DNA from: an uncultured Candidatus Saccharibacteria bacterium
GTDB taxonomy: Bacteria > Patescibacteriota > Minisyncoccia > Phycocordibacterales > UBA2100
DNA: 64,000 nt
Direction: 5' to 3'
NCBI GenBank assembly: GCA_964534465.1
Contig: CAZHOB010000002.1
Location: 29,725 to 93,724, forward strand
Below, in pieces: positions 21,001-24,000 of the stretch. The position numbers were made by a program. Each line of letters begins with the position of its first letter. Position 1 is the first letter of the stretch.

Positions 21001-24000
21001 AGGTCCGTCATCAGCGCGATACGCATCTTTTTCATATGCAAAATCAGTATACCCTCGAACAGTAAGAAAAAAAATTGCCCCACGGGTTGCGCGGGGCAAT
21101 AAGTTCGATCTGTATATCTAGAAGATCTCTCTCAAGAGGCGAGCGATGCCCGCGAGTGCGACGCCATCGGCAGATAGCTCGATGGCTTTTTTCCACGGGA
21201 GGAAGCGAAGTTCGCTTTCTCGCTTACTGGCGACCGTATCTTTCAGAGGTTGCCACAGATCATCTGCGATCTCCTCAAGATCTGAGAACGGCACCTCGAG
21301 ACCGTAGAAGTACAGGCCCTGTCCTTTATTAGGATCTTGGACAAAGCATGTGCGATCTGTGTTGACCGGCAAGCCGGGCAACGCCACCGCACGCGTCGAT
21401 TCGAGACCGCCTTCCTCAAGAGATTCCCGGCGTTGTGCTTCAGCAACTGATTCGCCGAGATCAACAGCGCCGCCGAGAGGCCCGAAGATCTTTTCGGGAC
21501 CCATCACTGCACGCCATTCGAGGATCAGACCGATTAGTATTTCCCCGCTCGGTGTTCTGCACCAGGGAATCGTGACCGTTCCGTTTTTTGCGGGCCAGTA
21601 CGCCCAGCCATGGAAACCCTCCGGTCTTTTGCCGAAGGCGAGCTTGCCCCACTCGGCGTGCTCTACCTGAAGAATGCACGGACGGTGTTCTATGCCGTCC
21701 AATGTGATCTTCCAAGTTGATGCCTGAGGTGAGGCGAGCGGCTCGATCTTAAATTCCGACATCGCGCCCTCCTATAGGGTTCGGTTTGAGATCATTTTCT
21801 AAATAAAAATATAACATTTATTATAAAAAATGTCAACGTTCGTGATGTGCGCCGGAGCCGGATTGCCTAAACTTTCACCTCATAGAAATCAGACCCGACG
21901 CTTTGCGCTATCTTTTTTTTCCAAGCGACGCGCTCCTTGCCGATATCGCGCAGCTCCAGAGTGCGGCGGCCCATTTCTTCGAGGCCAAATTCTTTTTCTC
22001 GTCCTTGCCGGATCGCGCCCTCCTTATCCCACACGCGGGCGTTGATGGCTTTCATACCCGAGATCCATTCGTCTTTTACATCGACGCCACCCGCGCGGAA
22101 TGCGTCGAGTACTTTTGTATAGAAAGAAAATTCTTTTTCATAGGCGGCATGATTCTTGTCATTCGGTAAGCGCTCAACCTTCAGAGATGCAATGGTTACT
22201 CGATCAATAGATTCGTGAAGTGGAAGTTTGAGGGGCGTTTTTGACTCCACCTGATCTCCCGTTTCAAAAAAATCGATACCGACCTCGGCTGTGTGCTTGT
22301 CTCTCACAATTGTCCGCGCATCGTTGCAGTCGCGAAGCTTCACTGCAAGGTGGCCAACATCTTCATAGTTGGGAGCAGCGCTTTTTTTGGCAATGCGTAT
22401 ATCAGCCTCGACGTCCCAGATCTTCGCGTTGATCGCTTTCATGTCGGTAAACCACGCGTCTTTTATGGCTATACCGTCTTTTCGGTATCCCTCGAGTACT
22501 TTATTGAAAAATTCGATCTCTCGCTCCACTGATGGGCGATCCGCCTCGTTGATCAAATGTTCCTGCTTCAACTCGAGAATAGTCAGACGATCTATCGCAT
22601 CGAGAAGGGGAACCTTTAATTCCGAATTGACGTAACCCATCGCACCAGTGTACCTCACGCTCTAACTGATTCCTCGGGTCGTCGGATGACCGTCACGCCG
22701 CGCACTTTCACCACCTCGGAGGCGCAATCGTTGGCGAAGCGAATGGATTCGTCGATGTCTCCCGTTTCTGCATATCGCACGACGAGCGCTGCGAAGAAAC
22801 TATCTCCCGCTCCGCTCGAATCCTTCACCTCGATCTCTTTGACCGGATACGTCTTGCCGCGGTAGAGAGCACCGTGCTGCCCGCGCGTGCGGATTATCTT
22901 GCTCTCGAGGCGCTCTCCGATAGGGAGCGAGCGATTGTATTCGTACTCATTTATTTTGATGAAACGCGCCTTACCGAGGAATCCCGAGACGCGCTTTTTG
23001 GTGTCTATAAATACGCACGGATGATTTTCACAGATATGGCGAATATCATCCTCCGAAAGATATCCTTTGTTGTAATCGGATATCGCTATGATATCGTAAT
23101 TTTTGAGCGGGATCTTGCGGACGTTGGCTTTGCCGACGAGGCGGTGATCCACATCGACGCGGAAAAATCCGTGATTGGTGCGGTCGTCCATAAAGCGGGT
23201 CTTGGTTACGTTTTTCCAGTTGTCGTTGGTCACGATCTCACAGTGGGGATAGATAGCCTTCACGTTGCGGTGGAGGTTCATTGCCATGCCAGGATTGTGC
23301 ACTCGACGATGCTCCTGCAGGACCGGCACGGGGATGTCGGGGGCGAGGCGTGTGGTGTCGCAGTAGACGAAGATGTCGCGGCAGCTTTCACCGATCACAA
23401 GGATTTTTTTCTTGTCTTTTTTCATATTAACCGAGCATCTTCACTATTTTTTTACGGATATCTTTCGGCGTGAGCTTGAAGTAAGCAAAGATCTCCTCGG
23501 GTGAGCCGTAGTAGTGGGGGAACTCGCGGGGTACGCCGGCATATTGCACCTCAAGAGGTTTACGGTCTGCAGCTTTCGCGATGTCTGTCGCAAAAGCGCC
23601 GCTGTAGTATGGCTCGCAGACCATCAGCTTATTACCGCGGATATTGCTGCGCAACGTCGCATGGTCGAAGGGCTGGAGCGTCGTGTAATAGAGAATGGTC
23701 ACATCGAGACCCTCGCACGCTTTCACCACAGTATCAAGCATGGGCCCTACGGCAATGACGGTGGCGTTGTTTCCTTTGCGAATGACATTTGCCTTTCCGA
23801 ATTTCACCGTGAGAGAGTCGGCGTTCCGCAAATTGCTCAAACGGAAATAGGTGGGGTGACCGTTGTCATAGGACTGCTTGAAGAGCGAGTCGAATTCAGC
23901 GGGGCTTCCCGGCACAACGACCTCGATCTCCGGCACGTTCTTCAAAATGCTCACGTCGCCCGGGCACTGATGCGTGCAGCCCCACGACGCGAGATCAAAA

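What the first reader, a model, noticed from the sequence alone, without database searches (positions are those of the whole stretch)
21867..22658. Internally duplicated protein of unknown function in an operon with a PfkB kinase and upstream of a Nudix hydrolase
The 263-aa ORF consists of two ~125-aa repeats that align residue by residue. For example, LLDAIDRLTILELK / LHESIDRVTIASLK; FFNKVLEGYRKDGIAIKDAWFTDMKAINAKIWDVEADIR / FYTKVLDAFRAGGVDVKDEWISGMKAINARVWDKEGAIR. It has no TM segments and no motifs I can place. It is translationally coupled to the sugar kinase and precedes a Nudix nucleotide-sugar pyrophosphatase-like gene. This arrangement hints at a role in nucleotide-sugar metabolism or its regulation.
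Basis: seen in the sequence. Interest (0 to 1): 0.5.

Follow-up and report, generated by a model that had tools for sequence, protein, structure and literature searches.

The report
Duplicated helical partner of a glycosyltransferase
The ORF is a real, conserved gene in a Kaiserbacteria-like (CPR) genome: two fused copies of a small helical domain of unknown function that is normally encoded beside, or fused to, one particular sugar-transferring enzyme, so it probably helps build a cell-surface glycan.

Summary
The internal duplication is real. The two halves align with a score 42 SD above shuffles, at 40% identity. The likely start is ATG 22640, giving 257 aa, not GTG 22658.

Each half is a four-helix unit. 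Elsewhere this unit exists as a free-standing protein of about 120 aa. At least 363 clusters at 50% identity carry it, in CPR bacteria, DPANN archaea, Planctomycetota, Omnitrophota and virus-labelled contigs.

Pfam barely covers the family. The window protein gives only sub-threshold hits to DUF6165 and DUF4254. The AlphaFold model is confident (pLDDT 93.6) but matches no solved structure.

The conserved partner is not the PfkB kinase or the Nudix. It is one GT4 glycosyltransferase orthogroup, at 19824..21035 in the window.
- The GT4 gene lies next to the domain gene in relatives.
- The GT4 is fused to one repeat in five protein clusters and to both repeats in P0192.
- All 3 GT4 orthologues picked without regard to the domain have it within four genes; 0 of 77 generic GT4 loci do.

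The locus makes a heptose-type sugar. Best reading: a single-chain pseudo-dimer that binds a sugar or phosphate ligand and assists this GT4. Whether it is catalytic is unresolved. Moderately interesting.

The parts
21867..22640 (-). CDS of the duplicated helical protein (257 aa plus stop).
   Evidence: AF2 model pLDDT 93.6, pTM 0.89, two sets of four helices
22263..22619 (-). Repeat 1 (residues 8-126 of the 257-aa protein). This is the more diverged copy. It has lost the family-conserved Arg (now L98), the Lys in the C-terminal tail (now G128) and the G/E of the H3-H4 loop.
21879..22232 (-). Repeat 2 (residues 137-254). It is close to the free-standing single-domain consensus (GREKEFGLEEMGRRTLELR) and 57% identical to the domain fused to GT4 in P0189. 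It has lost the family-conserved Asn (now G in the window, Q/G/S in relatives).
19824..21035 (-). GT4-family (GT-B fold) glycosyltransferase, the inferred functional partner. Its orthologues are adjacent to, or fused with, the helical domain.
   Evidence: Pfam; 39-61% identical orthologues next to the domain; fusions P0038, P0188-P0190, P0193 and P0192; reverse test
22655..23425 (-). Compact PfkB kinase (256 aa), HldA/RfaE-domain-I-like. It is the upstream gene of the same operon.
   Evidence: TIGR02198 1.2e-28, below cutoff; phrog_8133 1.4e-79; PDB 4e84 HldA 7.4e-6; 53.5% identical to the cyanophage S-SM2 kinase
23427..26093 (-). Split transketolase/E1-like enzyme (C-terminal part 23427..24305, N-terminal part 24310..25068) and Zn-dependent alcohol dehydrogenase (25065..26093). 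This is the sugar-synthesis module upstream of the kinase.
   Evidence: the same order occurs in relatives and in phage S-SM2
21808..21836 (-). Sigma-70-like promoter consensus match between the target's stop codon and the Nudix start codon.
   Evidence: 11 of 12 matches, extended -10 TG. This is a consensus match only.
21118..21762 (-). Nudix hydrolase with an intact Nudix box (GX5EX7REX2EEXGU). A terminator-like hairpin follows at 21100..21074.
   Evidence: Pfam 23.7 bits against a cutoff of 21.1; box read from the translation
29026..33351 (.). Heptose-pathway genes of the same glycan locus: HldC-like nucleotidyltransferase 29026..29505 (-), methyltransferase 29526..30488 (+), GT9 heptosyltransferase 30512..31768 (+), epimerase 31765..32649 (+), GmhA-like SIS isomerase 32773..33351 (+).

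Best explanation
The gene encodes a single-chain pseudo-dimer. It consists of two copies of a four-helix domain of about 125 aa that normally exists as a free-standing protein of about 120 aa, presumably a homodimer.

The domain works together with one particular GT4 glycosyltransferase (window 19824..21035). This GT4 acts in the assembly of a surface glycan. The glycan's special sugar is made by the adjacent ZnADH-transketolase-kinase genes and the ADP-heptose-type genes.

Proposed mechanism: each helix carries a stripe of invariant polar and aromatic residues (D17, K25, R28; E41; N71, W75, D76, E78, R82; R103, R109; the same set recurs in repeat 2). Together the stripes would form a pocket of the kind that binds a sugar with a phosphate or nucleotide (Trp/Asn/acid for the sugar, Arg/Lys for the phosphate). 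The module is either tethered to the GT4 by a flexible linker or associated with it non-covalently. It would present the GT4's donor or acceptor, or process its product.

Shown: the duplication, the family, the GT4 adjacency and the fusions, and the glycan context. Inferred: dimerisation, ligand binding and the assisting role.
For: - Duplication.
- Family size: most of the 363 representative clusters are single-domain proteins of 115-135 aa.
- Recurrent duplication: N-halves group with N-halves and C-halves with C-halves in the Kaiserbacteria-type proteins. A Paceibacterota pair (P0037, P0050) looks like a second duplication. This fits a dimer as the working unit.
- Model: confident two-repeat model.
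- Adjacency: GT4 orthologues (39-61% identity) sit immediately upstream and co-directional in L005-L008, L013 and L038, with a weaker one (29%) in L010. L042's upstream GT4 hits the window GT4 at 3e-92.
- Fusions: GT4 plus one repeat in P0038, P0188, P0189, P0190 and P0193; GT4 plus both repeats in P0192; the L114 fusion.
- Reverse test: all 3 GT4 orthologues chosen without regard to the domain have it within 4 genes. In the metagenome scan, 2 of 3 true orthologues have it, against 0 of 77 generic GT4 loci.
- Single-domain form: a GT4- or GT2-type gene is the immediate neighbour in 22 of 30 cellular loci.
- Conservation: D, K, N, W, E, G, N, R, K are kept at 90% or more across 110 single-domain proteins.
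- Context: heptose and glycan genes around it.
Against: - No direct evidence of binding to the GT4 or to any ligand.
- The AF2 model of the natural fusion P0192 has a disordered linker (residues 385-403) and pTM 0.63. No fixed docking of the two parts is predicted.
- The domain is also fused to non-GT enzymes: NTP_transferase, FkbM methyltransferase and a GFO/IDH/MocA oxidoreductase. That fits an independent pathway enzyme at least as well as a GT-specific accessory.
- One Kaiserbacteria-type locus (L112) has no GT4 within 5 kb; it has a divergent GT2 instead.
- No solved structure or characterised relative supports the pocket idea.
- I could not inspect the model's coordinates.
Confidence: 0.45

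Rival explanations
1. It is a small all-helical enzyme of the sugar pathway itself. It would act on a nucleotide sugar, NDP/NTP or sugar phosphate, for example as a pyrophosphatase, phosphatase or isomerase, with active sites built by the (pseudo)dimer. Its fusion to the GT4 would then be an ordinary fusion of two pathway enzymes.
For: - Invariant acidic, basic and amide residues on all four helices across bacteria, archaea and viral contigs.
- Fusions to five different classes of sugar enzyme, through a flexible linker.
- Patchy distribution typical of sugar-tailoring genes.
- In the Kaiserbacteria clade the two repeats have lost different conserved residues. This is seen in single-chain dimers of enzymes with interface sites.
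- A Nudix-fold gene often follows in the Kaiserbacteria clade.
Against: - No metal or cofactor motif such as the MazG EExxE.
- The canonical heptose steps are already covered in relatives, so no step is obviously missing.
- L194/P0034-type duplicates keep RR and N in both repeats, so the asymmetry is not general.
Confidence: 0.25
2. It is a pure oligomerisation or scaffold module with no ligand. The free domain would dimerise and bridge two glycan enzymes. The duplicated form would be a fixed heterodimer-like adaptor that can hold two different partners, for example the GT4 and a second GT.
For: - It is fused to many unrelated enzymes.
- It is flexibly tethered in the fusion.
- The best structural matches are dimerisation hairpins and designed helical heterodimers.
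- In L042 the duplicated form lies between two different GT genes.
- Duplication appears to have happened more than once.
Against: Scaffolds usually conserve hydrophobic positions, not a set of charged, amide and Trp residues kept at 90% or more across domains of life. A free-standing single-domain gene would still need a specific binding surface for its partner.
Confidence: 0.15
3. One reading: a regulator of nucleotide-sugar metabolism that works with the PfkB kinase and the Nudix hydrolase, for example by sensing the sugar-nucleotide pool and modulating the kinase or the Nudix.
For: - It is the last gene of the kinase operon in the window.
- It lies near the ZnADH-TK-PfkB module in 10 of the 11 loci examined that carry the duplicated form: the window, L001, L003, L005, L110, L111, L112, L194 (PfkB called in the locus) and L002, L004 (PfkB called; near-duplicates of L001 and L003). 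L196 has no PfkB in its 7 kb, and L042 has no heptose genes in 16 kb. The GT4 fusion locus L043 also has the module.
- A Nudix-fold gene follows it in the window, L001, L003, L111 and L196.
Against: - The kinase module exists without it in cyanophage S-SM2.
- Most single-domain members have no kinase nearby (about 9 of 30 loci have any heptose gene) and none has a Nudix.
- The Nudix genes are not orthologous between the window and its relatives.
- Fusions are to GT, MT, NTase and oxidoreductase, never to a kinase or Nudix among those seen.
Confidence: 0.1
4. It is not a functional gene: a chance ORF or a decaying duplicate.
For: None found.
Against: - 32 full-length homologues at 54-62% identity, with 57 invariant positions.
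- Hundreds of distant relatives.
- A confident fold prediction.
- Conserved synteny.
Confidence: 0.01

Closest known systems
Pfam DUF6165 (PF19662), family of unknown function
   Same: The unit has the same size (about 130 aa) and the same register. Window residues 19-91 align to profile positions 8-71. 18 of 28 half-sequences hit it at E below 0.1 (best 2.7e-7). 13 of 32 homologues carry a precomputed PF19662 call.
   Different: The window protein scores 22.9 bits against a cutoff of 27. Only 11 of 112 family members reach E of 1e-3 or better. The window protein is a tandem duplicate. DUF6165 itself has no known function, and no paper in the searched library mentions it.
Pfam DUF4254 (PF14063), uncharacterised, noted as genomically linked to the ADP-heptose:LPS heptosyltransferase RfaF in Flavobacteria (PMC9425974)
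   Same: It gives weak sequence matches (22 bits; 14 of 112 members at E of 1e-3 or better). It shows the same kind of genomic link, to a GT-B fold glycosyltransferase of a heptose-related pathway.
   Different: The match covers only about 27 residues (helix 1-2 region, aligned to profile positions 79-105), which suggests a different domain order or extent. The partner here is GT4 (or GT2 in DPANN archaea) rather than GT9. The score is below the cutoff.
E. coli MazG-type all-alpha NTP pyrophosphohydrolases (from my own knowledge: small four-helix domains acting as dimers, with a tandem-duplicated form of about 263 aa in E. coli)
   Same: This is an architectural analogy. Both are small helical units that work as dimers and also occur as tandem duplicates, with charged residues lining the bundle and a nucleotide-related context.
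Auxiliary partner proteins of GT-B glycosyltransferases (from my own knowledge: for example the DesVIII-type activators of macrolide GT1 enzymes)
   Same: This is a functional analogy. In both cases a separate small gene is encoded next to a GT-B glycosyltransferase and is thought to be needed for its function.
   Different: Those partners are P450-like proteins, unrelated in fold and sequence. No activation has been shown here.

Membership tests
Tandem-duplicated (pseudo-dimeric) form of a single-domain family | The two halves align significantly with each other. | tested here: met
   Score 240 against 29.5 +/- 5 in shuffles; 40% identity.
Tandem-duplicated (pseudo-dimeric) form of a single-domain family | Free-standing proteins exist that correspond to one repeat. 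| tested here: met
   Most of the 150 listed hits, out of 363 clusters, are 110-146 aa and match residues 143-263 (or 14-130) of the query.
Tandem-duplicated (pseudo-dimeric) form of a single-domain family | The two repeats pack into one globule. | tested here: inconclusive
   pTM 0.89 and pLDDT 93.6 for the whole chain suggest this. The coordinates and PAE could not be inspected.
Pfam DUF6165 (PF19662) | Score at or above the gathering cutoff (27 bits). | tested here: not met
   22.9 bits, E 7.6e-5. Relatives reach it only in part.
Pfam DUF4254 (PF14063) | Score at or above the gathering cutoff (27 bits), over most of the profile. | tested here: not met
   22 bits; only profile positions 79-105 of 144 are matched.
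All-alpha NTP pyrophosphohydrolase (MazG-like) | EExxE / ExxD metal-binding motifs and fold similarity to MazG, HisE or dimeric dUTPase structures. | tested here: not met
HEPN / NTase substrate-binding four-helix domains | R-x(4-6)-H motif and profile similarity. | tested here: not met
   The motif is absent. hhalign of the family profile against one PF08780 protein from L111 gives probability 0.4% (one example only).
GT4-associated partner or fused C-terminal module (a grouping proposed here, not a curated family) | It is encoded next to, or fused with, the FPFFWLFP-type GT4 orthogroup. | tested here: met
   In the window the GT4 is two genes downstream. Adjacency and fusions. Reverse test 3 of 3. 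0 of 77 generic GT4 loci.
GT4-associated partner or fused C-terminal module (a grouping proposed here, not a curated family) | Physical interaction with the GT4, or an effect on its activity. | not testable with these tools
   The monomer AF2 model of fusion P0192 shows a disordered linker and pTM 0.63. No multimer prediction was available.

The most novel reading that the evidence does not exclude
The domain is a previously unrecognised, widely distributed component of glycosylation machinery with a fold unlike any solved structure. It would be either a new kind of small enzyme acting on nucleotide sugars or an obligatory subunit of GT-B glycosyltransferases. It would be shared by CPR bacteria, DPANN archaea, Planctomycetota, large phages and possibly giant viruses. 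The Kaiserbacteria protein would be its single-chain dimer.
Probability: 0.3. Interest if true: 0.65.

Novelty: new variant of a known kind. Interest (0 to 1): 0.45.

Why it matters
CPR bacteria and DPANN archaea live attached to host cells, so their surface glycans are likely central to that lifestyle. The genes that build those glycans are still full of unknowns.

This work turns an anonymous hypothetical protein into a testable proposition. It is a helical domain family of at least several hundred sequence clusters that current domain libraries mostly miss and that has no solved structure. It is tied by adjacency and repeated gene fusion to a specific GT4 glycosyltransferase and, more loosely, to other sugar enzymes.

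If it proves to be a GT partner or a new small enzyme, it would fill a step in heptose-type glycan assembly. It would also improve annotation of many metagenomic and viral glycosylation loci. If it is only a dimerisation module, the finding is of modest, mainly annotational value.

Tried and rejected
- Curated libraries. Sequence searches of the full protein against NCBIfam and PHROGs, and of the full protein, the repeat profile (A2) and the family profile (A3) against PDB, gave nothing. The PDB hits were coiled-coil noise only (ZapB, E 0.05).
- Second word-indexed search. Searching with the repeat profile returned only 2 proteins and added nothing.
- Family alignment A3 was too diverse to seed a locus scan. 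I replaced it with the 27-sequence A4.
- Phage hypothesis. The kinase matches phrog_8133 and cyanophage kinases. However, the protein that follows the kinase in S-SM2 (SSM2_201, 261 aa, the same size as the target) is unrelated (hhalign probability 0.1%). From its sequence motifs I judged it to be FkbM-methyltransferase-like; I did not scan it against a family library. tblastn of the target and of a canonical single-domain member found nothing in GenBank phages.
- HEPN-like four-helix relationship: rejected.
- Older hairpin-level duplication inside one repeat (H1-H2 against H3-H4): no signal.
- 'Complementary degeneration of the two repeats' as a general rule. It holds in the Kaiserbacteria clade but not in the L194/P0034-type duplicates, so I use it only as a weak hint.
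- Alignment A6 (fusions plus free GT4 plus free domain) misaligned the free domain proteins. I discarded it and used A7 for the fusion model.
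Full report
**1. The observation**

The minus-strand ORF 21867..22658 exists. Its two halves are clearly homologous. The local alignment score is 240, against 29.5 +/- 5.0 for 500 shuffles (maximum 50). Identity is 48 of 119 positions, with a single one-residue gap.

Thirty-two homologues were found, 253-279 aa long apart from one 196-aa fragment (P0032). They come from Candidatus Kaiserbacteria and unclassified CPR MAGs, and the full-length ones all contain both repeats. When 28 half-sequences are aligned, 13 positions are invariant in both repeats: D17, I21, E41, N71, W75, D76, E78, I81, R82, G96, L102, R103 and R109 (numbering from the ATG at 22640).

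Every homologue, and the identical public gene call P0001, begins M-x-Y-x-N. The true start is therefore ATG 22640 (257 aa). This lies 14 nt after the kinase stop codon, with a GAGG 12 nt upstream.

**2. Anatomy**

AlphaFold2 run on the 31-sequence alignment gives a confident model (pLDDT 93.6, pTM 0.89). It has two sets of four helices: H12-27, H32-54, H61-85 and H92-120, then H141-157, H164-183, H190-211 and H220-247.

The invariant residues are spaced i, i+3/4 along each helix. Each helix therefore carries one conserved stripe, and the stripes mix hydrophobic with charged, amide and Trp residues. This follows from the sequence and the helix boundaries. I could not inspect the coordinates.

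No solved structure resembles the model.
- The best Foldseek E-value against PDB is 1.4.
- Sequence and profile searches of PDB find nothing but coiled-coil noise.

**3. The family**

An exhaustive HMMER search of 1.84 billion cluster representatives finds 363 clusters at E of 1e-3 or better. Most of the 150 listed are single-domain proteins of 110-146 aa that match one repeat, usually repeat 2.

Their consensus is DR.SI..LK.ER ... N..IWDLE.DIR.GKE..LGLEEVGRRA..IRD.N..R...KN.I....GF..IK.NHAS. D, K, N, W, E, G, N, R and K are kept at 90% or more.

Pfam recognises the family only marginally.
- The window protein scores 22.9 bits on DUF6165 and 22 bits on DUF4254, against cutoffs of 27.
- Only 11 and 14 of 112 members reach E of 1e-3 or better on these two models.
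- NCBIfam and PHROGs have nothing.

[quoted passage not shown] DUF6165 appears in no searched paper.

Single-domain members occur in several lineages:
- CPR bacteria: Paceibacterota, Saccharibacteria, Harrisonbacteria, Kaiserbacteria.
- DPANN archaea: Woese-, Pace- and Nanoarchaeota.
- Omnitrophota and Planctomycetota.

They also occur in 66 IMG/VR contigs.

Comparing halves shows that N-halves group with N-halves and C-halves with C-halves among the Kaiserbacteria-type proteins, so these share one old duplication. The Paceibacterota pair P0037/P0050 looks like a separate event. The window's repeat 2 is 57% identical to the single domain fused to GT4 in P0189, which is more than its 40% identity to its own repeat 1. 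Recurrent fusion of two copies argues that the working unit is a dimer.

**4. What it travels with**

The window locus is a glycan-biosynthesis island.
- Downstream operon order on the minus strand: Zn-ADH, split transketolase/E1, HldA-like PfkB kinase, the target, Nudix, GT4.
- Also present: an HldC-like nucleotidyltransferase, a methyltransferase, a GT9 heptosyltransferase, an epimerase, GmhA, an ABC exporter, further GTs, GtrA, a PMT_2-type membrane GT, and NeuB-type genes.

I examined eleven loci that carry the duplicated form (the window, L001-L005, L110, L111, L112, L194, L196, with L002/L004/L006 being near-duplicates of L001/L003/L005). Most have the ZnADH-TK-PfkB module nearby. The GT4 fusion locus L043 also has it. 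However, that module also occurs in the same order in cyanomyophage S-SM2, where the kinase is 53.5% identical. There the following 261-aa protein is unrelated to the target.

The Nudix link is weaker than it looks.
- The 190-aa Nudix-family proteins that overlap the target's stop codon in L001, L003, L111 and L196 are not detectably related to the window's Nudix.
- They have a degenerate box (RIxxGE instead of RExxEE).
- The window's Nudix has an intact box and its own promoter-like site.
- No Nudix accompanies the single-domain forms.

**5. The GT4 link**

The consistent companion is a GT4 glycosyltransferase orthogroup with the signature FPFFWLFP. In the window it lies at 19824..21035.

*Adjacency.* Orthologues (39-61% identity over more than 90% of the length) lie immediately upstream and co-directional with the domain gene in L005/6, L007, L008, L013 and L038, with a weaker one (29%) in L010. 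An orthologue lies directly downstream in L110 (called as GT4 by Pfam; identity not measured). In L001, L003 and the window the orthologue is two or three genes away. In the Paceibacterota locus L042, a very divergent duplicated form (41% identity) again follows an orthologue of the window GT4 (3e-92).

*Fusions.* The GT4 is fused through a linker of about 20 residues to one repeat in P0038, P0188, P0189, P0190 and P0193. It is fused to both repeats in P0192 (666 aa). L018 and L114 are further fusions.

*Reverse test.* I picked three GT4 orthologues from the GT4 search without regard to the domain. All have the domain within four genes: L194 and L196 carry the duplicated form, and L195 has a single domain immediately downstream.

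*Specificity control.* In a metagenome scan, 2 of the 3 true orthologues have the domain, and none of 77 generic GT4 loci does.

*Other glycosyltransferases.* More broadly, 22 of 30 cellular loci with the single-domain form have a GT4- or GT2-type gene as an immediate neighbour. In DPANN archaea a 295-aa GT2 is the immediate upstream neighbour in 12 loci (13 loci within two genes).

*Other fusion partners.* These are a GT2, an FkbM methyltransferase, a sugar-1-phosphate nucleotidyltransferase and a GFO/IDH/MocA oxidoreductase.

*Viral contigs.* In the IMG/VR contigs the upstream neighbour is often a PF11397-type GT (equal to phrog_24687) or an NDP-sugar C-methyltransferase.

*Giant viruses.* Foldseek against BFVD gives weak hits to multi-domain giant-virus proteins, one of them annotated as a glycosyltransferase (E 0.04-0.2, reported probability about 1.0).

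**6. How it most likely works**

Shown:
- It is a conserved, duplicated helical domain.
- It is genomically and physically (by fusion) linked to a specific GT4 and to other sugar enzymes, within a heptose-type glycan locus.

Inferred:
- The free domain is a dimer and the window protein is its single-chain version.
- The conserved Trp/Asn/Asp/Glu plus Arg/Lys residues form a site for a sugar carrying a phosphate or nucleotide.
- The module assists the GT4 step.

I rate this at 0.45.

The AF2 model of the natural fusion P0192 folds both parts well. The linker (residues 385-403) is disordered and pTM is 0.63. The domain therefore looks tethered rather than rigidly docked. This neither supports nor excludes a transient complex.

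The main rival (0.25) is that the domain is itself a small enzyme of the pathway. The variety of fusion partners and the invariant polar residues fit this at least as well. Against it, no catalytic fold or motif is recognisable.

**7. Comparison with known systems**

- The protein is not a threshold-passing member of DUF6165 or DUF4254, but it is clearly in their neighbourhood.
- It shares with DUF4254 the link to a GT-B glycosyltransferase of a heptose pathway.
- It is not MazG-like or HEPN-like by any test I could run.
- The tandem-duplicated architecture, the specific GT4 partnership and the breadth of the un-modelled family are, as far as the searched literature shows, undescribed.

**8. 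Verdict**

This is a real feature, correctly spotted.

I classify it as a new architectural variant within a known but uncharacterised superfamily. Interest is moderate (0.45). It offers a concrete, testable lead into CPR/DPANN and viral glycosylation, but no mechanism is established.

Noticed in passing
window 22655..26093 (-); L041 (Synechococcus phage S-SM2, 148407..152169 of GU071095.1): The module Zn-ADH, split transketolase/E1-like enzyme, compact PfkB kinase occurs in the same gene order in cyanomyophage S-SM2 (kinase 53.5% identical). The kinase also occurs in about 30 other cyanophage records, next to phosphoheptose isomerase and a nucleotidyltransferase. This is a sugar-synthesis cassette shared between CPR bacteria and marine phages, and its product is unknown.
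   Followed up: partly
window 32773..35214, and the whole 64-kb window: Relatives (L003, L043) encode a GmhB-type HAD phosphatase next to GmhA. In the window GmhA is followed directly by an ABC transporter. No homologue of the relatives' HAD protein was found among window ORFs of 80 aa or more (phmmer, E of 1e-3 or better). The heptose-bisphosphate phosphatase step is unaccounted for here.
   Followed up: partly
window 21118..21762 (-) compared with L001:8789-9361, L003:8789-9367, L196:977-1549: Two unrelated Nudix-family proteins occupy the slot right after the duplicated gene. The window's has an intact Nudix box and its own promoter-like site. The relatives' 190-aa protein overlaps the upstream stop codon and has a degenerate box (RIxxGE). 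This could be in-situ non-orthologous replacement or coincidence.
   Followed up: partly
L044-L109 (IMG/VR contigs, up to 293 kb, median GC 34%): 66 virus-labelled contigs carry the single-domain form inside one-directional gene blocks. Neighbours include a PF11397/phrog_24687 glycosyltransferase, NDP-sugar C-methyltransferases, HtrL_YibB-like proteins and radical-SAM proteins. No GenBank phage has the domain. BFVD gives weak fold hits to giant-virus proteins (Klosneuvirus, Pithovirus LCPAC304 'glycosyltransferase', Mimivirus LCMiAC01). I did not verify whether these contigs are phages, giant viruses or mis-binned cellular DNA.
   Followed up: partly
L003:9448-10290, L194:4244-4984, L196:1618-2433: An endonuclease/exonuclease/phosphatase-family protein (246-280 aa) recurs between the duplicated gene (or its Nudix) and the GT4 in relatives. 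It is absent from that position in the window.
   Followed up: no
window 18775..19830 (+) and 10413..11645 (+): Two sizeable ORFs inside the glycan island (351 aa, hydrophobic and likely multi-pass membrane protein; 410 aa) have no Pfam match. They are candidates for a glycan polymerase, ligase or flippase-type function.
   Followed up: no
L111:6466-8935: In one relative, toxin-antitoxin-type genes (Polbeta/MNT plus HepT-like, and Fic) are inserted between the duplicated-gene/Nudix pair and the GT4. They split an otherwise conserved arrangement.
   Followed up: no
window 35221..40174: A second sugar pathway lies in the same island: a KpsS/KpsC-like Capsule_synth protein, a class-III aminotransferase, a Polysacc_synt_2 dehydratase and a NeuB-type synthase. 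Together they suggest a nonulosonic-acid (sialic-acid-like) sugar in addition to heptose.
   Followed up: no
window 54001..58000: GC content drops to 0.45-0.47, against about 0.51-0.54 elsewhere in the window. This may be a horizontally acquired segment.
   Followed up: no
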